From Escherichia coli (GTDB taxonomy: Bacteria > Pseudomonadota > Gammaproteobacteria > Enterobacterales > Enterobacteriaceae): 64,000 nucleotides of DNA. The position numbers were made by a program, and so were the translations under genes. The stretch is taken from assembly GCF_013315695.1 (NCBI RefSeq), contig NZ_CP054353.1; one strand, given 5' to 3'. Positions 1 to 52,241 of the stretch are shown piece by piece (the first letter of the stretch is position 1; the number at the start of each line of letters is the position of its first letter). The notes below the pieces were generated by a model. That model made no database searches. It saw only the letters and a list, made by a program, of their open reading frames with translations, and was not told where the DNA came from.

Positions 1-40
1 GGATCAACTATCGCAAACGAGCATAAACAGGATCGCCATC

Positions 41-1111
41 ATGCAAAAAGACGCGCTGAATAACGTACATATTACCGACGAACAAGTTTTAATGACTCCG
101 GAACAACTGAAGGCCGCTTTTCCATTAAGCCTGCAACAGGAAGCCCAGATTGCTGACTCGCGTAAAACCATTTCAGATATTATCGCCGGGCGCGATCCTC
201 GTCTGTTGGTAGTATGTGGTCCTTGTTCCATTCATGATCCGGAAACTGCTCTGGAATATGCTCGTCGATTTAAAGCCCTTGCCGCAGAGGTCAGCGATAG
301 CCTCTATCTGGTAATGCGCGTCTATTTTGAAAAACCCCGTACCACTGTCGGTTGGAAAGGGTTGATTAACGATCCCCATATGGATGGCTCTTTTGATGTA
401 GAAGCCGGGCTGCAGATCGCGCGTAAATTGCTGCTTGAGCTGGTGAATATGGGACTGCCACTGGCGACGGAAGCGTTAGATCCGAATAGCCCGCAATACC
501 TGGGCGATCTGTTTAGCTGGTCAGCAATTGGTGCTCGTACAACGGAATCGCAAACACACCGTGAAATGGCCTCCGGGCTTTCCATGCCGGTTGGTTTTAA
601 AAACGGCACCGACGGCAGCCTTGCAACGGCTATTAACGCTATGCGTGCCGCCGCCCAGCCGCACCGTTTTGTTGGCATTAACCAGGCAGGGCAGGTTGCG
701 TTGCTACAAACTCAGGGGAATCCGGACGGGCATGTGATCCTGCGCGGTGGTAAAGCGCCGAACTATAGCCCTGCGGATGTTGCGCAATGTGAAAAAGAGA
801 TGGAACAGGCGGGACTGCGCCCGTCTCTGATGGTAGATTGCAGCCACGGTAATTCCAATAAAGATTATCGCCGTCAGCCTGCGGTGGCAGAATCCGTGGT
901 TGCTCAAATCAAAGATGGCAATCGCTCAATTATTGGTCTGATGATCGAAAGTAATATCCACGAGGGCAATCAGTCTTCCGAGCAACCGCGCAGTGAAATG
1001 AAATACGGTGTATCCGTAACCGATGCCTGCATTAGTTGGGAAATGACCGATGCCTTGCTGCGTGAAATTCATCAGGATCTGAACGGGCAGCTGACGGCTC
1101 GCGTGGCTTAA
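41..1111 (+). CDS. aroF: 3-deoxy-7-phosphoheptulonate (DAHP) synthase, Tyr-sensitive
   Basis: 356-aa ORF recognised as E. coli AroF; followed 10 bp later by tyrA, the known aroF-tyrA operon arrangement. Confidence 0.93.
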
Positions 1112-1121
1112 GAGGTTTATT

Positions 1122-2243
1122 ATGGTTGCTGAATTGACCGCATTACGCGATCAAATTGATGAAGTCGATAAAGCGCTGCTGAATTTATTAGCGAAGCGTC
1201 TGGAACTGGTTGCTGAAGTTGGCGAGGTGAAAAGCCGCTTTGGACTGCCTATTTATGTTCCGGAGCGCGAGGCATCTATGCTGGCCTCGCGGCGTGCAGA
1301 GGCGGAAGCTCTGGGTGTACCGCCAGATCTGATTGAGGATGTTTTGCGTCGGGTGATGCGTGAATCTTACTCCAGTGAAAACGACAAAGGATTTAAAACG
1401 CTTTGTCCGTCACTGCGTCCGGTGGTTATCGTCGGTGGTGGCGGTCAGATGGGACGTCTGTTCGAGAAGATGCTGGCACTCTCGGGTTATCAGGTGCGGA
1501 TTCTGGAGCAACATGACTGGGATCGCGCAGCTGATATTGTTGCCGATGCCGGAATGGTGATTGTTAGTGTGCCCATCCACGTTACTGAACAAGTTATTGG
1601 CAAATTACCGCCTTTACCGAAAGATTGTATTCTGGTCGATCTGGCATCAGTGAAAAATGGGCCATTACAGGCCATGCTGGCGGCGCATGATGGTCCGGTG
1701 CTGGGGCTACACCCGATGTTCGGTCCGGACAGCGGTAGCCTGGCAAAGCAAGTTGTGGTCTGGTGTGATGGACGTAAGCCGGAAGCATACCAATGGTTTC
1801 TGGAGCAAATTCAGGTCTGGGGCGCTCGGCTGCATCGTATTAGCGCTGTCGAGCACGATCAGAATATGGCGTTTATTCAGGCTCTGCGCCACTTTGCTAC
1901 TTTTGCTTATGGGCTGCACCTGGCAGAAGAAAATGTTCAGCTTGAGCAACTTCTGGCGCTCTCTTCGCCGATTTACCGCCTTGAACTGGCGATGGTTGGG
2001 CGACTGTTTGCTCAGGATCCGCAGCTTTATGCCGACATTATTATGTCGTCAGAGCGTAATCTGGCGTTAATCAAACGTTACTATAAGCGTTTCGGCGAGG
2101 CGATTGAGTTGCTGGAGCAGGGCGATAAGCAGGCGTTTATTGACAGTTTCCGCAAGGTGGAGCACTGGTTCGGCGATTACGCACAGCGTTTTCAGAGTGA
2201 AAGCCGCGTGTTATTGCGTCAGGCGAATGACAACCGTCACTAA
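1122..2243 (+). CDS. tyrA: bifunctional chorismate mutase / prephenate dehydrogenase
   Basis: 373-aa ORF; N-terminal chorismate mutase region plus NAD-binding G-rich motif ([11 protein letters not shown]); matches TyrA length and context. Confidence 0.93.
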
Positions 2244-2250
2244 TAATCCA

Positions 2251-2285
2251 GTGCCGGGTGATTCACATCATCCGGCACCTTTTCA
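2251..2285 (+). terminator. rho-independent terminator after tyrA (possibly shared with convergent pheA)
   Basis: Inverted repeat gtgccgggtga...tcacatccggcac followed by cttttc, immediately after the tyrA stop and abutting the pheA stop. Confidence 0.6.
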
Positions 2286-3446
2286 TCAGGTTGGATCAAC
2301 AGGCACTACGTTCTCACTTGGGTAACAGCCCAATACCTTCATCGAACGGGTGATGTCCCCTAACTCTTTCAATGCTTTTTGCATTTCCGCTGATTCAAGA
2401 TTGGCCTGAATATCCAGATAAAACATCTCTTCCCATGGATTACCGTGAATCGGGCGTGACTCCAGACGGGTCATAATCAGATTGTGGTTGCGCAGTACCA
2501 GCAACGCTTCAACCAGCGCACCAGCTTGTTGCCCGGTCGCCATTAACAACGTCGTTTTCGCTGGAACCTGGTCAGACACGTTAATGGCTTTACGTGCCAA
2601 CACCACAAATCGGGTGAAGTTTTGTCGCTGATTCGCTTCAATACGCTCCAGTACCTGCAAACCGTACAAAGTGCCGCCAGCTTCGCTTCCCAACGCAGCA
2701 ACATGCGGTGATTTTGCCTGTGCAACCTTTTCCATTGCCGCAGACGTACTTTCGGTATATTCAATCTTCCAGTGCGGATAACGATTAAGGAATTTGCTGC
2801 ATTGCTGGAATGGCTGCGGATGGCTGTAGACCGTATTGATGGTGGATAAATCAGTAGTGCCGGAGACCAACAAACAATGGTCGATAGTTAACGTCATCTC
2901 GCCAACAATCGACAAACTGGTATGTTGCAGCAGATCGTAAACGTCGTTTATGGCACCGGAGCTGGTATTTTCAATCGGTACGACGGCATAGTCGGCCTGG
3001 CCGGTTTCCACCTGATTAAAAATATCGGCAAATTTGGCGCAGCCACTTTCAATGAATTGCTCAAAGTGACGCGCAGCGTACTGACGAGCGGCAAGATGTG
3101 AATAGGAGCCTTTGGGGCCGAGAAAAGCGATGCGTGCTGAGTGCGGATTAATTTTATTGAGATGTTGCTGGAGCAGTGCCTGCTGAGTTAATACGGAATC
3201 TTCAATGATGAGCTGGAACAGGCGAGTAATGTAATGGGCGTCCAGATGGTGCGCTTTACCGAGCGTAATTAATCTTTCCAGCAAATCGCGTTCGCGATCA
3301 ATATTACGTACCGGGCGATGCGAGAGCAGTTTGGCTTTTCCCACCTCGACGGCCAGTTCGCGTCGCTCTGCCAGTAATGCTAATAATTTTTCATCCAGCG
3401 CGCTGATTTTCTCTCGCAGCGCCAGTAACGGGTTTTCCGATGTCAT
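2286..3446 (-). CDS. pheA: bifunctional chorismate mutase / prephenate dehydratase
   Basis: 386-aa ORF recognised as PheA; preceded on the same strand by the pheL leader peptide and attenuator. Confidence 0.93.
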
Positions 3447-3466
3447 AGTGTTGCCTTTTTGTTATC

Positions 3467-3496
3467 AATAAAAAAGGCCCCCCGATTTGGGAGGCC
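3467..3496 (-). terminator. pheA attenuator terminator
   Basis: On the minus strand GGCCTCCCAAATCGGGGGGCC followed by TTTTTTATT, lying between pheL and pheA. Confidence 0.8.
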
Positions 3497-3544
3497 TTAT
3501 TGTTCGTCTTCGCATTCTGTTTCACACGACGAAACGCCTCCCAT

Positions 3545-3592
3545 TCAGGGGAAGGTAAAAAAGAATGCGAAGAAAAACGGTGTGTGTTTCAT
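3545..3592 (-). CDS. pheL: phe operon leader peptide ([15 protein letters not shown])
   Basis: Reverse complement reads ATG AAA CAC ATA CCG TTT TTC TTC GCA TTC TTT TTT ACC TTC CCC TGA, a 15-codon Phe-rich leader; too short for the ORF track. Confidence 0.9.
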   Translation of the reverse strand: [15 protein letters not shown]

Positions 3593-3646
3593 GTTTGTTT
3601 CCTTAAGTGACTTTAGTACAGTACCCGTACTGTTTTCACGCTGTCA

Positions 3647-3673
3647 ACAAAAAACGCGCCCGAAGGCGCGTTG
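3647..3673 (-). terminator. rho-independent terminator downstream of raiA
   Basis: Minus strand AACGCGCCTTCGGGCGCGTT followed by TTTTTTG, just past the raiA stop. Confidence 0.7.
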
Positions 3674-3695
3674 GCGATACACTCAATATAAAGGA

Positions 3696-4091
<396 letters not shown>

Positions 4092-4284
4092 TCAAAATGT
4101 GTGATGGAAATCTCATAATTTTGTCACTTTTTGTCAACGAATCTTTTTTGTGAGAAATCGCAGGAAGAGGTGTTTTTTACTTGAGGAATATCTCAAAGCG
4201 AGCCATATTTGATGAGATCGATAGTGACTAAATCGCTTCAGTTTCACAACTAACAGAATAAAAAAACGGCAGCTCAAGGGCTGT

Positions 4285-5709
4285 AATGCCAGTCAGTTAA
4301 GCAACTGACTGGCTCTTTTTCGGGGCTGTGGGGTATTTCCAGGGCCTCTCCTTTACCACTCTCGGGAAGGCCCTTTCCCTTCTTGTCGGTAATTTCACAA
4401 GTTGTCCCATACTTGCAAGATCGCGCATCAGCTCCGGTATACGTCCCGGTGAAGCGCCCTGCAATGTCATCAGCATTCTCATCACCATTCCGCATGATTC
4501 TGAGAAACTCAGTTGATTCGGCCAGTAACCTTTCAGATGTTCCGCCATTTTAATCATCTGATATCTCACCAGATTATAAGCCAGTAAGACACCCCACAGC
4601 TCTTGCTCCACAAGCTCCGGTTTTTTACTTCTCAGCGTCAGCCTGCTCAGTTGCATCGTCTGTTTTATCTCCCTGTATCCCAGTTCGATTTCCCAGCGAT
4701 GACTGTACAGATCCGCCATTTCTCCTCCGGGGAAGCGCATGGCGTCCGTCATCGACGTCAGCAGATGGCAGACTTTTCCTTTGCGCGTCACGGTCAGCAG
4801 GCGGGCTGTCACTTCATTTCCCAGTCCCGGCCACTTTTTTCGTGCCTGCGGGCTGGTTTTCAGCTTCACCAGATGATCGCCTTTACCCAGTTTTCTGATC
4901 TCTTCATATTGCGCTCCCTTTCTGAGAGGTATCATCCAGTGGCGGTGTTCTCCCGCCAGGCTCCAGGCATTTAACAGTCCCAGTGAGTAATAACCTTTAT
5001 CCATTAACGTCAGAGTGTTATCGCCGGTTTGTTCTATAAGTTGCTCAGCAAGCTCATTTTCGCTGTTCTTCATCGTGCCGAAGGCTGCAGCCGTCAGCAG
5101 ATGGCTGGTCAGTTCCATCTGGCAGACCATTTTGACCTGCGGGTAGAGCGCCGGGTTCCCGGCATGTGTCTGGCGGGGGAAGGCTGCATCGTTCTCTGGT
5201 GTATCCGGTGTGCGCCAGAACACACCATCGATGGCCAGCAGGGTCAGGCCGCACCAGTGCGGATGCGGCGTGGCGTTATGCCAGAGCTGCGCTGTTTTCG
5301 TGAACACGCGGCGGACAGCCTCACTTCCCAGGCGCTGGCGGGCCTGAATAACGGCACTGGGGGCAACGAAGGGGCGATTGCCCGGCAGCATGATGTCCAG
5401 GCGATTCACAATCTGGTGAAGAGGTTCTTTACGCTCAAGCGCCATGCCAACAATACACCAGACCATCATTTCGAGGGGAAGACGGCGCTTGCGTAGCGTT
5501 ACAGTACCTGATTCGGCAAGGCAACGAGAGATGAGTTCGGGGTCGAGGTAATCCCCCAGAGAAGTCAGTGGGTTACGCAGAGAATCGTAACGGGATACCA
5601 GATCAAGAGCCTGTCCAATGTGCATAAAAAAATCCGGAAACAAGTGAGCGTTTCCGGATTCTTACACAGCCACTGGATCGGTCAACTGATCCTTAACTGA
5701 TCGGCATTA
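4285..5709 (-). mobile_element. IS4 insertion sequence, complete (about 1425 bp)
   Basis: Imperfect terminal inverted repeats TAATGCCAGTCAGTTAAG (left, from 4285) and TAATGCCGATCAGTTAAG (right, reverse complement ending 5709), 16 of 18 identical, enclosing a single DDE transposase ORF. Confidence 0.88.
4297..5625 (-). CDS. insG: IS4 family transposase
   Basis: ORF 4297..5643; recognised as the IS4 transposase, with the likely start at the internal [16 protein letters not shown] (track ORF is 6 aa longer). Confidence 0.85.
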
Positions 5710-5750
5710 CAGCCCGAAGGCTGGCATTTTTAAATCAGATAAAGTCAGAC

Positions 5751-7064
<1,314 letters not shown>

Positions 7065-7135
7065 TCACTAGTTAAACTGAAACTCCAGACAAACAACGCG
7101 TACCCAGGGTACGCGTTGCCGTTCTAACTTTTTTC

Positions 7136-8788
<1,653 letters not shown>

Positions 8789-9000
8789 TTAGGTTGAAAA
8801 GACGATGGAATAACCAGGACGGGAAAGCAGTATACCCGAACATGACCTGTGCCACAAACTTTCATTATCCCTCCTCTTCGCCAGCGCACTATTGAAATCA
8901 GGAGTGAGAAAATAGCCCCTTTGGGGTAAATGTTTTTGACGCAAATCAAGCGCTTGTCATTTAAAAAATGACACAAATGGCGCTTGACCACGTAATTCCC

Positions 9001-9792
9001 TTAGAGATCAATTTCCTGCCGTTTTACCTGTTGCCAGACTTCTTCCATTGTTTCGAGGTCAACACCTGTCATTTCCAGTCCACGCGCGGCAACAATACGC
9101 TCCACTTCGCGAAAACGGCGCTCGAATTTTTCATTGGCTTTTTGTAGTGCAATCTCTGCTTTTGTCCCTAAATGGCGGGCCATGTTGACCGTGGCAAACA
9201 GCAGGTCACCCATTTCCTCCTCCAGTTTAGCCTGGTCGACAACAGCCTGCCGCGCCTCGTACATCACCTCGTCGATCTCTTCGTAGACTTTATCGACTAC
9301 CGGACCAAGCGTCGTCCAGTCGAAACCAACGTTGGCGCAACGTTTCTGGATTTTTTGCGCACGCATTAAAGCCGGTAAACTACGAGGAATATCGTCCAGC
9401 GCCGAATGCTGCGCTTTCTGCGCGCGCTCTTCGGTTTTGATTTGCTCCCAACGGGCAAGCACTTCACTACTGTTTTCGGCAGAACTGTCAGCAAAAACAT
9501 GCGGATGGCGACGTTCTAATTTATCGCTGATCGCGGCGCAAATATCATTAAAGTCAAAGCGCCCTTCTTCCTGGGCCATTTGTGCGTAAAACACCACCTG
9601 GAACAGCAGATCGCCCAGTTCACCGCGCAGATCGTCAAAATCTTCACGGGCGATGGCGTCCAGCACCTCGTAGGTTTCTTCAAGGGTGTAAGGCGCAATG
9701 GTGGCAAATGTCTGCTCTTTATCCCACGGGCAGCCGTTTTCCGGATCGCGCAGGCGCTGCATAATAGTGAGCAAACGGTCGATTTGATTCAT
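9001..9792 (-). CDS. mazG: nucleoside triphosphate pyrophosphohydrolase MazG
   Basis: 263-aa ORF immediately downstream of mazEF; recognised as MazG. Confidence 0.9.
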   Translation of the reverse strand: MNQIDRLLTIMQRLRDPENGCPWDKEQTFATIAPYTLEETYEVLDAIAREDFDDLRGELGDLLFQVVFYAQMAQEEGRFDFNDICAAISDKLERRHPHVFADSSAENSSEVLARWEQIKTEERAQKAQHSALDDIPRSLPALMRAQKIQKRCANVGFDWTTLGPVVDKVYEEIDEVMYEARQAVVDQAKLEEEMGDLLFATVNMARHLGTKAEIALQKANEKFERRFREVERIVAARGLEMTGVDLETMEEVWQQVKRQEIDL

Positions 9793-9863
9793 TAGAATGT
9801 CCTGAAAATTGCGGGTCTGTCAGGTGGAAACCTGTGACCAGAATAGAAGTGAGTTAGTAACAC

Positions 9864-10199
9864 CTAGCCAATCAGCACGTTAATTTTGGCTTTAATGAGT
9901 TGTAATTCCTCTGGGGCAACCGTTCCTTTCTTCGTTACTCCTCTTGCCCGCCAGGCGATTCTTTTTACCTGATCAGCTAACGCTACGCCATCACGTTCCT
10001 GACCGGATAGAACAACTTCAAACGGATATCCTTTTGATTGCGTTGTACAAGGAACACACAGACACATACCTGTTTTGTTGTTGTACATGAACGGACTGAG
10101 GACAACAGCCGGACGATGTCCGGCTTGCTCGCTACCTTTTGTCGGGTCAAAATCAACCCAAATCAGATCGCCCATATCGGGTACGTATCGGCTTACCAT
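9864..10199 (-). CDS. mazF: toxin MazF (mRNA interferase, ACA-specific endoribonuclease)
   Basis: 111-aa [22 protein letters not shown]...; start overlaps the mazE stop by 1 nt. Confidence 0.93.
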   Translation of the reverse strand: MVSRYVPDMGDLIWVDFDPTKGSEQAGHRPAVVLSPFMYNNKTGMCLCVPCTTQSKGYPFEVVLSGQERDGVALADQVKRIAWRARGVTKKGTVAPEELQLIKAKINVLIG

Positions 10200-10447
10200 T
10201 ACCAGACTTCCTTATCTTTCGGCTCCCCCCAGTCGATATTCTCGTGGAGGTTTTCCGGCGTGATGTCGCTGACCAGTTCAGCAAGCGTAAATACGGGCTC
10301 TTTACGTACTGGCTCAATAATTAATTTGCCATCCACCAGGTCAATCTTCACTTCATCATCAATATTCAGATTGAGCGCCTGCATTAACGTAGCTGGGATC
10401 CGCACTGCAGGAGAATTTCCCCAACGCTTTACGCTACTGTGGATCAT
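10199..10447 (-). CDS. mazE: antitoxin MazE
   Basis: 82-aa [30 protein letters not shown]... (AbrB/SpoVT-type fold), directly upstream of mazF. Confidence 0.93.
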
Positions 10448-30920: not shown

Positions 30921-31005
30921 GTGCCGGATGCAAACGATTACCAGCACATTGAATTTAATGCACTTATATGCCGGATAAGACGCGGCTAGCGTCGCATCCG
31001 GCATT
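30921..31005. repeat. REP elements between xni and fucO
   Basis: gccggataagacgcggctagcgtcgcatccggca and an upstream gtgccggatgc copy; canonical REP palindromes. Confidence 0.7.
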
Positions 31006-44998: not shown

Positions 44999-45074
44999 AG
45001 CACCTCAGAATTAAAAAGGGTGAGGTTACCCCTCACCCTGTCATATCCGTAAAAACGGCATACAGAATATCACA

Positions 45075-46677: not shown

Positions 46678-46694
46678 ACACTTATGATGCTGAT

Positions 46695-46729
46695 AAACCG
46701 CAATGTGTTTCACAGATTGCGGTTTTTTT
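46695..46729 (+). terminator. rho-independent terminator of the tRNA-fMet operon
   Basis: aaaccgcaat...attgcggttt hairpin followed by T-run. Confidence 0.8.
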
Positions 46730-46755
46730 GTATTTAAAATCTTTGTTCGCTGAAC

Positions 46756-47712
46756 TCACAACACGTTTTTTATCTCCCTTCCTGCGAAGTAATCAATTAT
46801 CGACTGGGCAACGTGTATCCCGGTTTGCTGGTATGACTCAACGGTGGCTGCCGCGATATGCGGCGTTGTAATGATATTTTTGGCATGTAGCAGTGGGCTA
46901 AATTGCGCCAACGGTTCAGAGCTAAACACATCCAGCGCCGCAAACACATTTCGTTCTTCAATCACCTGAAGTAAAGCGCCCTCATCCAGCAACTTTCCCC
47001 TTGCGGCATTGATGATCAGAGCACCATTGCGCATCATCGACAAATATTTATGACTAATGAAGTTCTCCAGCTCCGGAGAAAATGGCAAAAGAACGATGAT
47101 GACATGAGACTGCATAAAGATATCTTCAATTGATACGAACTGAACTCCATCTTTGCCTGCGGCCTGGAAATCGGGTTGTTTGTCAAAAGCTAAAAGCTCA
47201 ACATCAAAACCAGATAACCTTTTCGCCAGTGTTTTGCCAATATTGCCGTAGCCAAGCAGGCCAATACGTTTACCTTGTAACTCGCAGCCATGCGACTCGC
47301 CCCAATAACCATTTTGCATCGCATGATAGCTACCGGGGATATTTCTCATGCTCGCGAAGATAAGTCCAATGATAAATTCCGCAACCGCATTTGAATTAAT
47401 CCCAACCGCATTATTGACAACAATACCGGATTGCTGTGCCGCACGAAGATCAATATTGTCTATCCCCGTCCCGAATCTCGATATTATTTTCACACCAGAC
47501 AGCAATGATAGCGTGTCCGCCTGATAACAATCTTTTCCGGCGATGACCGCGCAAATAGATTCTCGTAATGCAGTGGATTCTGATTTAAGCAGATGCTCCA
47601 CATTATTCTTAATAATAAGATTAAAATTATTCTCTCTTAGCAACTTGCTGGCGGAAACACAGCGTGCTGAAAAGCTGGGGACGGTGACCAGAACATTTTT
47701 CATAGCTGACAC
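46756..47712 (-). CDS. D-isomer-specific 2-hydroxyacid dehydrogenase family protein (accessory island)
   Basis: 318-aa ORF with NAD-binding GxGxxG (GLLGYGNIG) and catalytic-domain layout of SerA/GhrA-type dehydrogenases; AT-rich codon usage. Confidence 0.75.
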   Translation of the reverse strand: MSAMKNVLVTVPSFSARCVSASKLLRENNFNLIIKNNVEHLLKSESTALRESICAVIAGKDCYQADTLSLLSGVKIISRFGTGIDNIDLRAAQQSGIVVNNAVGINSNAVAEFIIGLIFASMRNIPGSYHAMQNGYWGESHGCELQGKRIGLLGYGNIGKTLAKRLSGFDVELLAFDKQPDFQAAGKDGVQFVSIEDIFMQSHVIIVLLPFSPELENFISHKYLSMMRNGALIINAARGKLLDEGALLQVIEERNVFAALDVFSSEPLAQFSPLLHAKNIITTPHIAAATVESYQQTGIHVAQSIIDYFAGREIKNVL

Positions 47713-47773
47713 TCACTTCAAAGAACGCCACCCCAAAAGATGGCGTGACCGGTTACTGTTTTATATTCTAAAA

Positions 47774-48370
47774 TTATGAGTTTGCTTTAATACCGAGCGC
47801 ACCTCCTGGATGATATAAGCCGAAATCAGCACGAGTAAACTTTTTCAATTCGGAGAGCGCAAGCGCCACCGCATCACCAACAACCAGAACGACTGTTGAT
47901 GAGCATGACGGCGCTAAACCTAAATTATCCGCCTCACTTTTTACGGGAATTTCAACGGATAAATCACAACTTATCGCAAGCGATGAGTGATGACTGCGTG
48001 TAAAAGAGATCAAATAATTACCCATTTTTTTCAGACTAGGCAGTGTCGCCAGGATTTCCGCCGTCTCACCACTGTTTGAAATAAGAATAACAACATCGTC
48101 TTTCGCCACCATTCCAAGGTCGCCGTGTACCGCTTCCGTACCGTGAACAAAAAACGAGGGAGTTCCGGTACTGGCAAAAGTTGCTGCGAGTTTTCTGGCA
48201 ATAATACCGGACTTACCAACACCAATAAAAACAACTTTTCCCTGACAAGATTGTAATACTTTAATTAAATTTGCGACCTCCGAAAGGGGGGAATCAATAA
48301 CTTCTTCAACTGCTTTATATTCGTTACGCATAAAATGTTTAATGAGATGGATAAGATCCGTGCTGTTCAT
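47774..48370 (-). CDS. SIS-domain sugar-phosphate isomerase (KpsF/GutQ-like SIS domain without CBS domains)
   Basis: 198-aa ORF with SIS motifs GVGKSG...SNSGET; closest in memory to arabinose-5-P isomerase or hexulose-6-P isomerase SIS domains. Confidence 0.7.
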   Translation of the reverse strand: MNSTDLIHLIKHFMRNEYKAVEEVIDSPLSEVANLIKVLQSCQGKVVFIGVGKSGIIARKLAATFASTGTPSFFVHGTEAVHGDLGMVAKDDVVILISNSGETAEILATLPSLKKMGNYLISFTRSHHSSLAISCDLSVEIPVKSEADNLGLAPSCSSTVVLVVGDAVALALSELKKFTRADFGLYHPGGALGIKANS

Positions 48371-48372
48371 TT

Positions 48373-49554
48373 TTATTTTCCTTGATTAATATTTTTAATT
48401 ACACTCGCAAGACGCGTAAGCCCCATATATAATTTTTCTCGACCGCAGGCCAGGTTCAGACGAAGGTAGCCCTCCCCCTCCGTTCCATAGACATGCCCCG
48501 CCATAATGCCCACTTTGCCTTCATGAATTAATCGACTGTAAAATTCATCAAAAGGATAACCAATAGCAGAACAATCTATCCAGGAAAAATAGCAACCATC
48601 AGCTGGCCTTACGATCAATTCTGGAATATTTTCATTCAGATACTGCTGGGTGAATTGAATGTTAGAGGCAATATGTACCTTTAATGACTTTAACCATCCC
48701 TCACATTCGTTATAGGCAATAATAGTTGCAATTATATTCAGTACTGATGGGGAGTTTACAAAATCGCGATACCTCGATATCGTTCTGAACTTATGATTAA
48801 AATTATCGTCAGTTGAAATCATATACGATCCTGTTAGTGCAGGAACATTAAATGTTTTCGATATCGAGTTAAATACTACTACTTTTTCTTTTTTTATTTT
48901 AAGCGCGGATGTAAAGCTACGATTAAAAACAAAATCACTATGGATTTCATCTGAACATAACCAGACATTATGCCTTGTACAGCTTGCAGCGATTTTATGC
49001 AGTTCTTCTTCCGACCAGACTGTTCCTGTCGGGTTATGAGGATTACATAATAACACCATCTTTGCGCCTTTAATCTTAAGTTCAAAATCTTGCCAGTTGA
49101 TAGCGTAGCCCCCCTCATTTTTTATAATCAAAGAGGCTGTCAGAATATTTCGCTCGCTATGTTTAATTACATCAAAAAATGCATTATAGACAGGTGTAAA
49201 AACGAGAATATTATCACCATGTGATGTCAATAACTCTATTGCTTTTGCAATAGAGTACATCACACTGGGGCTATAGGTGATCCATTCTGGTTTGATTTCA
49301 GTTTTATATTGTTGATGATACCAGTTTACTATCGCATTCAGATAGTCATCATGCTGCCAACGGCTGTACCCTAAAATCGGGTGTTCCAGACGTTTTCTTA
49401 ATGCCCTGATGATAGCGTCCGGTATCGGAAGATCCATATCTGAAATAGAGAATGGTAATACATCTTTTACACCAAATCTGTCCTCGCAAAAGTCCCATTG
49501 GGTACAATATGTTCCTTTGCGGGAAACAGGAGTATTAAAAACATCCATCAGCAT
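48373..49554 (-). CDS. PLP-dependent C-S lyase / aminotransferase, MalY/PatB family
   Basis: 393-aa ORF that aligns by eye along its length with E. coli MalY (TQWD, LPF.ISDMD, LLC.P.NPTG, SDEIH, SK.FN.PAL). Confidence 0.75.
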   Translation of the reverse strand: MLMDVFNTPVSRKGTYCTQWDFCEDRFGVKDVLPFSISDMDLPIPDAIIRALRKRLEHPILGYSRWQHDDYLNAIVNWYHQQYKTEIKPEWITYSPSVMYSIAKAIELLTSHGDNILVFTPVYNAFFDVIKHSERNILTASLIIKNEGGYAINWQDFELKIKGAKMVLLCNPHNPTGTVWSEEELHKIAASCTRHNVWLCSDEIHSDFVFNRSFTSALKIKKEKVVVFNSISKTFNVPALTGSYMISTDDNFNHKFRTISRYRDFVNSPSVLNIIATIIAYNECEGWLKSLKVHIASNIQFTQQYLNENIPELIVRPADGCYFSWIDCSAIGYPFDEFYSRLIHEGKVGIMAGHVYGTEGEGYLRLNLACGREKLYMGLTRLASVIKNINQGK

Positions 49555-51128
49555 ATCCCCATGTAGTTATCCATATCCCGACGCAAGGCGATGACTTTAG
49601 TACCGATAATGACTTGTAGGGTATTTTGATCAAGTTTAACAACCGCAATCCCGCCAGCTCTTTTTATTGCAACTTCGTCAATCAATCCCATATCTGCGAT
49701 TGTTAAACGTAAACGAGTTACGCAATTATCCAGTGACTTAATATTCTCTTTACCACCAAGTGCCTTAACCATCTGCTCCGCCGCTTGCAGCTCTGATTTA
49801 TCAGGAGTTGGGATATCCGCTATAGCCGTATCTTCGTGAACGTTCAGCGTGACAGGACTGGACTCTTCACGGCCTACGGTCATCAGGTTAAATTTAAGAA
49901 TGGTCCAACGGAACACAAAGTAATAAATGAAGAAATAGGCCACTTCGACACACACCGCGATCGGCCAACCTGTTCTTGTGCCACGCAATACGCCAAAGCT
50001 AATAAATTGAATCAGATCGCCAGTAAATCCCATCTTCACGCCCATATATGGCAGAACCATGTTAGCGAATCCATTCATAAAGGCATGGAAGACAAACAGC
50101 AGTGGACTGACAAATAAGAACAGAAACTCAATCGGTTCGCTGACGCCGCCAATAATCACCGTAAGCACCCCGGAAATAAGCAATGCTTTGATAGCCTTTC
50201 TGTTTTGAGCATGAGCAGTGCGATACATCGCCAGCGCGGCACCAGCCAGACCATACTGAATCATCAGTTTGCCCTGCTCCATTTTCCCCGCCAAATCCAG
50301 CGGAATGACCGCATTCTCTTTAACGTATGCCATAAACATGTTCAGGGTGCCGTAATATTCTTCGCCGCCAATCACAGCCGAACCGCCGATTGGCGTAAAG
50401 CGGAAAACTGACGTCACCAGATGGTTTAAGCCAAAAGGAATCGTCACGCGTTCGGCAACTGCATAGAAGAAATAACCAACAGGACCGGAAGTTGATATCC
50501 AGTGGCCAATGAGCATGAAGAGATTGAAAAACGGCGGCCAGATAAAAGGAATGATCAGACCAAATCCACTCATCACAATCAGTGTAATGATAGGCACCAG
50601 ACGTGGGCCGCTATAAAAACCTAATGATTCAGGAATGCGTAAATTAACGATCTTTTTATACATGCTGGCGACTAATAACCCAGCAACAATTCCCCCTAAC
50701 ACGCTGGTATTGTAGGACTGGATCCCCAGAATGATGGTTTGCCCATGTGTCGACATTTGGTCAGCAGCGACCAATAAGTCGTGCTGTTTAAGATAAAAGT
50801 TCGTTCCCAGATGCATCGCCATAAAACCAATTAAGCCAGAAAAAGCGCCATAGGCTTTATCCTCTTTCTCTTTTAATAATCCTAAGGGAATTGCTATCGC
50901 AAACAATACAGGTAAATTAACAAAGGCAAACAAACCAAGGCTAACAATGAAATCAAGTATGGTTTTAATTATTGGAATAGTCAGAAATGGAATTAACTTT
51001 GCCATATCATCACTGGCTAAACCACTTCCCAGCCCTAGCATCATGCCACATACACTTAGCAGAGCAATGGGATACATAAATGCCTTCCCCAGGCTCTGAA
51101 AAAAACTCCAGGCTTTCTTTTGTTTCAT
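49548..51128 (-). CDS. PTS glucose-family EIICB component, MalX-like
   Basis: 526-aa polytopic ORF with C-terminal EIIB phosphocysteine motif (NCVTRLRL); strong resemblance to MalX/PtsG EIICB. Confidence 0.8.
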   Translation of the reverse strand: MKQKKAWSFFQSLGKAFMYPIALLSVCGMMLGLGSGLASDDMAKLIPFLTIPIIKTILDFIVSLGLFAFVNLPVLFAIAIPLGLLKEKEDKAYGAFSGLIGFMAMHLGTNFYLKQHDLLVAADQMSTHGQTIILGIQSYNTSVLGGIVAGLLVASMYKKIVNLRIPESLGFYSGPRLVPIITLIVMSGFGLIIPFIWPPFFNLFMLIGHWISTSGPVGYFFYAVAERVTIPFGLNHLVTSVFRFTPIGGSAVIGGEEYYGTLNMFMAYVKENAVIPLDLAGKMEQGKLMIQYGLAGAALAMYRTAHAQNRKAIKALLISGVLTVIIGGVSEPIEFLFLFVSPLLFVFHAFMNGFANMVLPYMGVKMGFTGDLIQFISFGVLRGTRTGWPIAVCVEVAYFFIYYFVFRWTILKFNLMTVGREESSPVTLNVHEDTAIADIPTPDKSELQAAEQMVKALGGKENIKSLDNCVTRLRLTIADMGLIDEVAIKRAGGIAVVKLDQNTLQVIIGTKVIALRRDMDNYMGIC

Positions 51129-51159
51129 GTGGGTTATCTCATATAAATGTTATATATAA

Positions 51160-51984
51160 TTAGTCCATTAATACTTTGGTACGAATAGAGAGATATAGTT
51201 TTTCTTCTAAAATTAATTCATATTTAAAAGTGGCATACAGATACCGTTCAATTTCATGAATTGCGCGCTGTAAAAGGATGTCCTTTTCAAGAAACTGTTC
51301 ATAGATATCACCAATATCTTTCTGTTTTATTTTTTCATTGCATAACACGCGACTTGAAAAATATTTAAGGTGTATCATGAACCTGGAATAATTAAATGAA
51401 CTTCTGTCCACCTTTCTGTTATAAACAACTTCAATAAGCCCCGTGATTATTTGCGACAACTCAATAATCCGTACTGATTCATAATCAACTGAATTTTCAT
51501 AATTATTTAAAATATGCAATGCTATAAAACCAATCTCATCATCAGGAAGTTGAACGCTGAATTGCTCATTAATGATAGTTAATGCATCGCGACTTATCGC
51601 ATACTCTGCTTTGTACAACGCTTTGATTTCATCAAGGAAAACATTATTAATTTGTATGCCTGAAGCGACTCTGGATATTGCATTCGAAATGTGATCAGCA
51701 AGAATCAATAGTAGCGATGGATTGAGATTTTTTTCGAGATTGTTCTCCGCATATTGCACTATTTTTTCGGCAACAAAAACATACTCAATATCCACATGTT
51801 CAATCAATTTGTAGAGTTTATTTTTTTGTTCATTTCTGACATAAAAAATCCGGTTAGCCGGATGCTCAGGGACCGACATTCCATATTTTTTGTTGTAACC
51901 GACGCCAGGCCCAGAAATGATAACCTCCTGTCCATTCATCGATGCCTGTACACAATTATTGTTCATGACTTTTTCGATGATCAT
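51160..51984 (-). CDS. BglG/LicT-family transcription antiterminator (CAT RNA-binding domain + PRDs)
   Basis: N-terminus MIIEKVMNNNCVQASMNGQEVIISGPGVGY matches the co-antiterminator domain signature; track ORF starts 19 codons upstream (52041) inside the leader terminator, and GGAG precedes the ATG at 51984. Confidence 0.7.
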   Translation of the reverse strand: MIIEKVMNNNCVQASMNGQEVIISGPGVGYNKKYGMSVPEHPANRIFYVRNEQKNKLYKLIEHVDIEYVFVAEKIVQYAENNLEKNLNPSLLLILADHISNAISRVASGIQINNVFLDEIKALYKAEYAISRDALTIINEQFSVQLPDDEIGFIALHILNNYENSVDYESVRIIELSQIITGLIEVVYNRKVDRSSFNYSRFMIHLKYFSSRVLCNEKIKQKDIGDIYEQFLEKDILLQRAIHEIERYLYATFKYELILEEKLYLSIRTKVLMD

Positions 51985-51995
51985 TCCATGGCTCC

Positions 51996-52068
51996 AAAAA
52001 AAAAGGCAAGGCACGTCAGAAGTAATAACTACTTCAAACATTGCCTTGCCTGATTTAACAGTTACAAG
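51996..52068 (-). promoter_or_regulatory. RAT (ribonucleic antiterminator) overlapping a rho-independent terminator in the antiterminator leader
   Basis: Minus strand CTTGTAACTGTTAAATCAGGCAAG resembles the BglG/LicT RAT consensus (GGATTGTTACTG...CAGGCAAAACC); its 3' half forms the 5' arm of hairpin GGCAAGG...CCTTGCC followed by T9. Confidence 0.6.
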
Positions 52069-52241
52069 ATGATTAACTAATGCGTATACATTACACGGAA
52101 TTGTGCTTAATTAAAGAGATGGTCGGCTTATTTTTCAAGCCGACATTCAAATATCCGACATCAGTCACAAAACCAGCGTCTAATATTCAGGTAAATGTTA
52201 TCTATTCAACGAAATATAAATTCATTGAATAAATAAAAACA

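What the first reader, a model, noticed from the sequence alone, without database searches (positions are those of the whole stretch)
4271..5723. IS4 flanks are non-identical but 12/14 similar near-palindromes, not a clean target-site duplication
The 14 bp immediately left of IS4 (cagctcaagggctg) and right of it (cagcccgaaggctg) are direct repeats with two mismatches; each is itself hairpin-like (cagc...gctg). A fresh transposition should leave an identical 11-13 bp duplication. Non-identical but related flanks fit recombination between two IS4 copies that had each inserted at similar preferred target sequences (IS4 has been described as target-selective; recalled, not checked here). This supports the rearrangement reading.
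Basis: partly seen in the sequence, partly recalled or inferred. Interest (0 to 1): 0.5.

Follow-up and report, generated by a model that had tools for sequence, protein, structure and literature searches.

The report
IS4 recombination scar from chromosomal inversion
A jumping gene (IS4) sits between two E. coli chromosome regions that normally lie 170 kb apart, and its mismatched flanks show that two IS4 copies recombined and flipped the DNA between them, which is a well-understood and ordinary kind of bacterial genome rearrangement.

Summary
IS4 is window 4284-5709 (1426 bp). Its flanks are cagctcaagggctg (4270-4283, not 4271) and cagcccgaaggctg (5710-5723). They match at 11/14 positions, not 12/14.

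- **Two separate loci.** In K-12 each flank is the single-copy tip of a different intrinsic terminator hairpin, the bamD-raiA one and the ygcG-eno one, about 170 kb apart.
- **Parental state.** Close relatives (MSB1_4I, GCA_964055605.1) carry an identical IS4 at both sites, each with a perfect 14-bp duplication, in inverted orientation.
- **Reciprocal junction.** GCA_964052565.1 matches the window with 0 substitutions over 10.4 kb. It also holds the predicted junction ygcG...cagcccgaaggctg|IS4|cagctcaagggctg...bamD, 166 kb away.
- **Independent recurrence.** Strain TW10690 made the same inversion independently (13-bp eno duplication, different IS4 allele).

The flanks resemble each other because IS4 is target-selective. 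In 11 of 12 distinct sites in the first survey its left cut lies 3 bp inside an A-run, and in 9 of 12 its right cut lies 3 bp before a T-run; four more sites sampled later mostly fit. The duplication is 11-14 bp, and most targets are terminator hairpins.

This is homologous recombination between inverted IS copies, which is textbook biology, so interest is low.

The parts
4284..5709 (-). Complete IS4 element (1426 bp); the transposase gene is on the minus strand
   Evidence: 100% identical over its full length to annotated 'IS4-like element IS4 family transposase' loci in many E. coli genomes. The end 30-mer occurs once in the window. The exact protein carries Pfam Nterm_IS4 + DDE_Tnp_1.
4300..5643 (-). 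IS4 transposase ORF (448 aa from TTG at 5643; 442 aa from ATG at 5625)
   Evidence: ORF list. Both protein lengths are annotated in public genomes.
4284..4301 (.). IS4 terminal inverted repeat at the transposase 3' end (TAATGCCAGTCAGTTAAG)
   Evidence: Pairs with 5692-5709 at 16 of 18 positions; part of inverted repeat I1.
5692..5709 (.). IS4 terminal inverted repeat at the transposase 5' end (reverse complement TAATGCCGATCAGTTAAG)
4270..4283 (.). Left flank cagctcaagggctg: one copy of the 14-bp target duplication made when IS4 entered the bamD terminator hairpin
   Evidence: Single copy in the empty K-12 site. Present on both sides of IS4 in MSB1_4I and four other genomes. The second copy sits at the reciprocal junction in L030.
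4260..4269 (.). Left target arm: A7 run plus cgg (outer half-stem and U-tract template of the bamD terminator)
   Evidence: The terminator is called in K-12 and its RNA folds at -17.3 kcal/mol.
5710..5723 (.). Right flank cagcccgaaggctg: one copy of the 14-bp target duplication made when IS4 entered the ygcG/eno terminator hairpin
   Evidence: Single copy in empty sites L028 and L035 and in K-12, where the loop allele is cgga. Duplicated around IS4 in MSB1_4I and five other loci.
5724..5731 (.). Right target arm: gca plus T5 (outer half-stem and A/T tract of the eno terminator)
   Evidence: The intact hairpin RNA folds at -21.7 kcal/mol, z = -4.5.
3696..4037 (-). raiA, the gene on the left side of the junction (in K-12 it lies downstream of bamD)
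5751..7049 (-). eno, the gene on the right side of the junction; its terminator was the second IS4 target
5628..5663 (-). IS4-internal hairpin followed by U7, directly upstream of the transposase ATG. It is terminator-like and faces transcription entering from eno.
   Evidence: Inverted repeat I13. A 15-bp stem within a -34.8 kcal/mol fold, z = -4.8.
4288..4313 (+). IS4-internal hairpin followed by UCUUUUU at the other end. It is terminator-like and faces inward.
   Evidence: Terminator scan hit. 11-bp stem, -18.7 kcal/mol.

Best explanation
The window holds one of the two junctions of a roughly 166-kb chromosomal inversion made by homologous recombination between two identical IS4 copies in inverted orientation.

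Step 1. In an ancestor, IS4 transposed into the bamD intrinsic terminator upstream of raiA, duplicating 14 bp (cagctcaagggctg). This step is inferred from sister genomes that still show the state.

Step 2. Another IS4 transposed into the bidirectional ygcG/eno terminator in the opposite chromosomal orientation, duplicating 14 bp (cagcccgaaggctg). This step is inferred in the same way.

Step 3. Recombination somewhere inside the two identical 1426-bp elements flipped the segment between them. Each IS4 now carries one half of each duplication: raiA-side a | IS4 | t-eno in the window, and ygcG-t | IS4 | a-bamD at the sister junction. The end state is shown directly. The crossover itself, and its dependence on host recombination, is inferred.

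The two flanks look alike and are hairpin-like because IS4 is target-selective. It inserts where an A-run and a T-run lie 18-20 bp apart and cuts about 3 bp inside each run. The duplicated 11-14 bp is therefore the apex of a GC-rich stem-loop, typically an intrinsic terminator. The flank similarity plays no part in the recombination.
For: **Flanks map to two loci.** K-12 shows each flank as a single copy at a different locus about 170 kb apart, with the raiA side inverted.

**Parental state exists in relatives.**
- MSB1_4I is 99.8-99.9% identical to the window on both sides.
- It has an IS4 with 0 differences from the window's at both sites, each with a perfect 14-bp duplication, on opposite strands.
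- GCA_964055605.1 shows the same arrangement.

**Reciprocal junction exists in the source-like genome.**
- GCA_964052565.1 contains the window junction (L040) with 0 substitutions over 10,446 bp.
- It also contains the reciprocal junction with the predicted flank pair (L030).
- The two IS4 copies are inverted and 166 kb apart.

**Independent recurrence.** TW10690 has both junctions. Its eno duplication is 13 bp (agcccggaggctg), it carries the K-12-type loop allele, and its IS4 differs from the window's at 9 positions. The matching 13-bp parental insertion is seen in L067 and L070.

**Frequencies among 5426 complete E. coli genomes.**

| Junction | Genomes |
|---|---|
| raiA\|IS4 | 336 |
| IS4\|eno | 83 |
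| hybrid raiA-IS4-eno | 1 |
| hybrid ygcG-IS4-bamD | the same 1 |

**Target rule.**
- In 12 distinct E. coli sites the left cut is 3 bp from an A-run in 11, and the right cut is 3 bp before a T-run in 9. Duplication length equals spacer minus 6.
- Four more sites mostly fit.
- 13 of 18 flanks in Kosakonia, Photorhabdus and Methylobacterium have a T-run starting at +15 to +18, against 6% of control positions (p = 1e-12).
- The same hairpins were hit independently in both orientations.

**Literature.** De Palmenaer et al. [quoted passage not shown] Lee et al. 2016 describe homologous recombination between direct and between inverted IS copies as the two routine types of IS recombination event in E. 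coli (PMC5009759).
Against: - The two IS4 copies are identical, so the crossover point cannot be mapped, and RecA dependence cannot be tested here.
- It is not proven that the window comes from GCA_964052565.1. There is one T6/T7 homopolymer difference at about window 4179.
- No reads were available to rule out a mis-join across the 1.4-kb repeat, or a population mixed for the two orientations.
- The 11/14 flank identity is higher than for any other pair of IS4 targets surveyed. Part of it is coincidence rather than being explained by target preference.
Confidence: 0.9

Rival explanations
1. One-step intramolecular transposition. A single IS4 at one terminator attacked the other terminator on the same chromosome, and this produced the second copy and the inversion together, without any prior second insertion.
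For: The final structure (a|IS|t and t|IS|a, with the copies inverted) is the same as that expected from replicative intramolecular inversion. The second site is a bona fide IS4 target. Rearrangements coupled to IS movement that leave no matched duplications are reported for other IS families (PMC11708052).
Against: Close relatives already carry both IS4 copies with perfect duplications, so the substrates for simple recombination existed. Across E. coli, 83 and 336 genomes carry the two insertions without the inversion. From general knowledge, not tested here: the studied members of the IS4 family (IS10, IS50) transpose by cut-and-paste rather than replicatively.
Confidence: 0.04
2. Assembly artefact or mixed population. 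The 166-kb segment between two inverted 1.4-kb repeats was placed in the wrong orientation, or the culture holds both orientations.
For: Inverted identical repeats are classic sites of mis-orientation. Only one other genome in 5426 shows the arrangement. The window differs from L040 by a homopolymer indel typical of long-read error.
Against: Both junctions are internally consistent in a chromosome-scale contig of 5.19 Mb. A 1.4-kb repeat is easily spanned by long reads. An independent finished genome (TW10690) shows the same inversion with different flank and IS4 alleles.
Confidence: 0.05
3. A single ordinary IS4 insertion whose target duplication later decayed by point mutation.
For: Such decay does occur. 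In strain TCM3e1 the bamD-raiA IS4 has cagctcaagggctg on one side and cagctcaaggActg on the other.
Against: The genes on the two sides (raiA and eno) are 170 kb apart in K-12, and the bamD-raiA and ygcG-eno loci are contiguous in essentially all other E. coli genomes. Each flank is an exact match to a different empty site.
Confidence: 0.01

Closest known systems
E. coli IS4 (ISfinder IS4 family, IS4 subgroup; the single insG copy of K-12)
   Same: Same 1426-bp element, 100% identical to annotated copies, with 18-bp inverted repeats (16/18) and a DDE transposase with an Nterm_IS4 domain. Strong target selectivity with conserved left and right target arms, as noted for this subgroup (PMC2266710). 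From memory only: an AAA-N20-TTT target consensus from the early 1980s (Klaer 1981, Mayaux 1984); those papers are not in the library.
   Different: The duplications at these two sites are 14 bp, one more than the 10-13 bp listed for the subgroup. The element here is a recombinant with hybrid flanks.
IS-mediated inversion by homologous recombination between inverted IS copies (seen in E. coli mutation-accumulation lines, Shigella, Yersinia pestis, Bordetella pertussis)
   Same: Two identical copies in inverted orientation, exchanged halves of the target duplications at the two junctions, and the parental arrangement present in relatives (PMC5009759).
   Different: IS4 is usually low-copy and rarely recombines: 0 recombinations from the single IS4 copy in the K-12 lines. 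This lineage has about 15-18 copies. Because IS4 is site-selective, the same end points recurred independently in TW10690.
Mobile elements that home to extragenic hairpins (IS1397/IS621/ISPpu9 into REP sequences; class C group II introns next to terminators)
   Same: Insertion into GC-rich intergenic stem-loops rather than genes. IS targeting of REP sequences is reviewed in PMC3184786 and described for ISPpu9 in an abstract listed.
   Different: IS4 is a DDE IS4-family transposase that makes an 11-14-bp duplication centred on the hairpin axis. It appears to read the flanking A and T tracts, whereas those elements belong to other families and recognise other features.

Membership tests
IS4 (E. 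coli insertion sequence IS4) | About 1426-bp element, near-identical to the reference IS4 | tested here: met
   1426 bp, 100% identical to annotated IS4 in many genomes.
IS4 (E. coli insertion sequence IS4) | 18-bp imperfect terminal inverted repeats beginning TAATGCC | tested here: met
   4284-4301 against 5692-5709, 16/18 complementary.
IS4 (E. coli insertion sequence IS4) | Single long ORF encoding a DDE transposase of the IS4 family | tested here: met
   442/448-aa ORF. The exact protein is on record with PF13006 Nterm_IS4 + PF01609 DDE_Tnp_1.
IS4 (E. coli insertion sequence IS4) | Identical direct target duplication of 10-13 bp flanking the element | tested here: not met
   This copy has non-identical flanks (11/14) because it is a recombinant. 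The parental copies have perfect duplications, but of 14 bp. Other sites give 11-14 bp.
Inversion by homologous recombination between inverted IS copies | The two flanks of one copy derive from two different loci | tested here: met
   bamD-raiA and ygcG-eno terminators in K-12.
Inversion by homologous recombination between inverted IS copies | A second copy carries the reciprocal flank pair, in inverted orientation | tested here: met
   L030 in GCA_964052565.1, the genome whose L040 equals the window. Also TW10690 L001/L006. It is not proven that the window is that very assembly.
Inversion by homologous recombination between inverted IS copies | The un-recombined configuration (both copies with matched duplications) exists in relatives | tested here: met
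   MSB1_4I (L002, L007), GCA_964055605.1 (L027, L039) and others.
Inversion by homologous recombination between inverted IS copies | Dependence on host homologous recombination (RecA), not on transposase | not testable with these tools
   Needs genetics. The copies are identical, so no crossover tract is visible.
Intrinsic (rho-independent) terminator as the insertion target | GC-rich stem-loop followed by a U-tract at the 3' end of a gene | tested here: met
   bamD: called by the terminator scan, -17.3 kcal/mol. eno/ygcG: 13-bp stem, -21.7 kcal/mol, flanked by A6/T5-6. Both have z near -4.5. The simple scan did not call the eno site. Termination activity itself was not tested.

The most novel reading that the evidence does not exclude
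IS4 may be, in effect, a terminator-homing element with three linked properties.
- Its transposase reads an A-tract and a T-tract and cuts about 3 bp inside each. The 'variable' 11-14-bp duplication would then simply be the tract spacing minus six.
- It carries inward-facing terminator-like hairpins at both ends. These could replace the bidirectional terminator it destroys and shield its transposase from read-through.
- Because the target set is small and shared between lineages, different E. coli lineages independently acquire inverted IS4 pairs at the same loci and so undergo the same inversion in parallel.

The target arms are already in the literature. The cut-position rule, the terminator replacement and the parallel inversions may not be.
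Probability: 0.25. Interest if true: 0.4.

Novelty: already known. Interest (0 to 1): 0.18.

Why it matters
It is a clean, fully documented example of how hybrid target-site duplications reveal an IS-mediated inversion. All three states are visible in public genomes: the empty sites, the parental double insertion and the recombinant.

In practice it flags a 166-kb inversion that includes recA, mutS, rpoS and the CRISPR-cas region in K-12 terms. Anyone comparing synteny or assemblies in this lineage should expect it.

The wider point is modest. A site-selective IS pre-wires the same recombination end points in unrelated lineages, so identical structural variants can arise repeatedly and should not be read as shared ancestry.

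Tried and rejected
- **Literature on the IS4 target consensus.** Searches found only the general statement in PMC2266710. The 1981/1984 primary papers and the 1998 review (PMC98933) are not held, so the AAA-N20-TTT consensus is cited from memory only.
- **Scan of species-representative genomes with the IS4 end.** It did not find the source genome, but it gave 18 one-sided flanks (mostly Kosakonia oryziphila) that I used as an independent test of the T-run rule.
- **Terminator scan on the K-12 eno site.** It failed to call the terminator, probably because A:T pairs extend the stem into the T-run. I used folding instead.
- **Decayed single-locus duplication.** Considered and rejected.
- **Role of flank similarity in the recombination.** Rejected. 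The exchange needs only the 1426-bp identical IS4 copies. The same raiA-side IS4 has also recombined with a copy at a dissimilar target (ggggataattcccc, next to a MASE1-EAL gene) in GCA_964047195.1.
- **A second IS4 in the window.** There is none.
- **Other rearrangements in the window.** None. The rest is collinear with K-12 apart from a 5.5-kb island and small indels.

Full report
**What is in the window.**
Bases 4284-5709 are a complete IS4. It is 1426 bp long, has 18-bp terminal inverted repeats matching at 16/18, and has one long ORF on the minus strand. It is 100% identical to loci annotated as IS4 in many E. coli genomes. The exact protein carries the Nterm_IS4 and DDE_Tnp_1 domains. 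It is the only IS4 in the window.

The 14 bases to its right are cagcccgaaggctg (5710-5723). They agree at 11 of 14 positions, with mismatches at positions 5, 7 and 9, not 12 of 14. The left side carries aroF, tyrA, pheA, pheL and raiA. The right side carries eno, pyrG, mazG and onward.

**Where the flanks come from.**
In E. coli K-12 the left flank occurs once, inside aaaaaaacggCAGCTCAAGGGCTGccgtttt. This lies between bamD and raiA and is the bamD intrinsic terminator.

The right flank occurs once, inside aaaaaatgcCAGCCCGGAGGCTGgcattttt. This lies between the convergent genes ygcG and eno. The loop reads cgga in K-12 and cgaa in the window's lineage, as the empty sites L028 and L035 show.

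The two sites are about 170 kb apart in K-12, and the raiA side of the window is inverted relative to the eno side. As RNA the intact hairpins fold at -17.3 and -21.7 kcal/mol, with z near -4.5. The halves left beside IS4 in the window fold no better than shuffled sequence. Each flank is therefore the apex of a different terminator hairpin, which is why each looks hairpin-like.

**Parental and reciprocal states.**
- **Parental state.** MSB1_4I is 99.8-99.9% identical to the window on both sides. It has an IS4 with zero differences from the window's at both sites, each with a perfect 14-bp duplication, and the two copies lie on opposite strands. GCA_964055605.1 and several others show the same arrangement.
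- **Window junction elsewhere.** GCA_964052565.1 contains the window's junction. Locus L040 matches window 1-10445 with no substitutions and one T6/T7 homopolymer difference.
- **Reciprocal junction.** The same 5.19-Mb contig holds ygcG...gccagcccgaaggctg | IS4 | cagctcaagggctgccg...bamD (L030). That copy is in inverted orientation, and the two elements are 166 kb apart.

**Frequencies.**

| Junction in 5426 complete RefSeq E. coli genomes | Genomes |
|---|---|
| raiA\|IS4 | 336 |
| IS4\|eno | 83 |
| hybrid raiA-IS4-eno | 1 (TW10690) |
| hybrid ygcG-IS4-bamD | the same 1 (TW10690) |

**An independent recurrence.**
TW10690 has both hybrid junctions about 235 kb apart. Its event differs from the window's in three ways:
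- Its eno duplication is 13 bp (agcccggaggctg).
- The loop allele is the K-12 type.
- Both IS4 copies differ from the window's at the same nine positions.

The matching 13-bp parental insertion is seen in other genomes (L067, L070). The same inversion therefore arose at least twice.

In GCA_964047195.1 the raiA-side IS4 is instead joined to a third locus, next to a MASE1-EAL gene, with flank ggggataattccccggtttttt. This shows that the recombination does not depend on similar flanks.

**Why the flanks resemble each other.**
I reconstructed 12 distinct E. coli IS4 target sites from loci returned for the exact transposase protein, and four more later.
- In 11 of 12 the left cut is exactly 3 bp after an A-run.
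- In 9 of 12 the right cut is exactly 3 bp before a T-run.
- The duplication is 11-14 bp and equals the spacing between the tracts minus six.
- Most sites are strongly self-complementary stem-loops at gene ends or between convergent genes: adhE-tdk, rpoD-mug, degS-mdh, yceK-mdoH, aroA-ycaL, tynA-feaB and the site upstream of bipA.
- The later sites fit within plus or minus 1 bp, except one short hairpin (spacer 15) where the cut abuts the A-run.

Independent flanks from Kosakonia oryziphila, Photorhabdus khanii and a Methylobacterium contig support the rule. In 13 of 18 a T-run starts at +15 to +18, against 6% of control positions (p about 1e-12).

Several hairpins were hit more than once, in both orientations or with cuts shifted by one base. 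These are eno (four insertion alleles), bamD (two), yceK-mdoH (two) and a phage-integrase-adjacent site (two).

This agrees with the published remark that some IS4-subgroup elements show striking specificity in the left and right target arms (PMC2266710). It also agrees with my recollection, not verifiable in the library, of an AAA-N20-TTT consensus.

Among 66 pairs of target sites, the bamD and eno pair is the most similar (11/14; the next is 9). Target preference therefore explains the shared architecture, and the shared CAGC...GCTG stem is partly coincidence.

**Mechanism.**
The best explanation is two ordinary IS4 insertions into two terminators, followed by homologous recombination between the inverted, identical copies. 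This flipped the intervening 166 kb.

The end states are shown directly. The crossover itself is inferred, and it cannot be mapped because the copies are identical. Homologous recombination between IS copies, direct or inverted, is a routine class of event in E. coli (PMC5009759), and loss of matched duplications through IS-IS recombination is a standard explanation (PMC11708052). Only inverted pairs are likely to be seen here, because a direct pair would delete 170 kb that, from knowledge of the K-12 map rather than a test here, includes essential genes.

The rivals are each unlikely for the reasons given in their entries: one-step intramolecular transposition, misassembly or a mixed culture, and a decayed single-site duplication.

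**Verdict.**
The count is 11/14 and the left coordinate is off by one. The phenomenon is textbook biology, so novelty and interest are low. The modestly interesting residue is the simple cut-position rule, IS4's own terminal hairpins, and the parallel recurrence of the same inversion.

Noticed in passing
window 4288-4313 (+) and 5628-5663 (-): IS4 carries a strong inward-facing hairpin followed by a U-run just inside each end (11-bp stem + UCUUUUU; 15-bp stem + U7 directly before the transposase ATG). An element that lands in terminators may thereby restore termination for the flanking genes and block read-through into its transposase.
   Followed up: partly
window 46679-52240: A 5.5-kb segment absent from K-12 lies between the three tRNA-Met genes (metZWV) and amiC. 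It has five minus-strand genes: a BglG-type antiterminator (CAT_RBD + PRD), PTS EIIBC, an aminotransferase, a SIS-domain protein and a 2-hydroxyacid dehydrogenase. It looks like an accessory sugar or amino-sugar utilisation cluster next to a tRNA.
   Followed up: partly
window ~4173-4179 (T-run upstream of raiA): The window has T6 where GCA_964052565.1 has T7. K-12 also reads T7, and the best RefSeq raiA|IS4 hits align 301 bases to the 300-base query, consistent with the same one-base difference. It is the only difference from GCA_964052565.1 in 10.4 kb and may be a homopolymer sequencing error or a real indel in the raiA upstream region.
   Followed up: no
L042 (GCA_964047195.1), IS4 at 9000-10425 of the reverse strand: The same raiA-side IS4 is joined on its other side to a different locus (a MASE1-EAL protein and YfeC-like genes) with flank ggggataattccccggtttttt. 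This is a second, different IS4 x IS4 rearrangement in this lineage.
   Followed up: partly
L003 (strain TCM3e1), flanks of the bamD-raiA IS4: The duplication there is imperfect (cagctcaagggctg against cagctcaaggActg), an example of a point change in one copy after insertion.
   Followed up: no
L008-L023 (Kosakonia oryziphila REICA_142), L024 (Photorhabdus khanii), L025 (Methylobacterium mesophilicum): An exact 30-nt IS4 end occurs at 16 contig ends in a Kosakonia draft genome, suggesting an IS4 expansion outside Escherichia. It also occurs once each in Photorhabdus and in a 265-bp Methylobacterium contig, which may be contamination.
   Followed up: partly
L070 (GCA_045165505.1): There, eno-IS4 is followed by an IS3-family transposase instead of ygcG. 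This is either another rearrangement or a nested insertion at this hotspot.
   Followed up: no
window 30930-30979 and 45020-45039: There are small differences from K-12. About 50 bp is extra between the xni (ygdG) and fucO regions, and about 140 bp of K-12 sequence is missing between tcdA and mltA.
   Followed up: no
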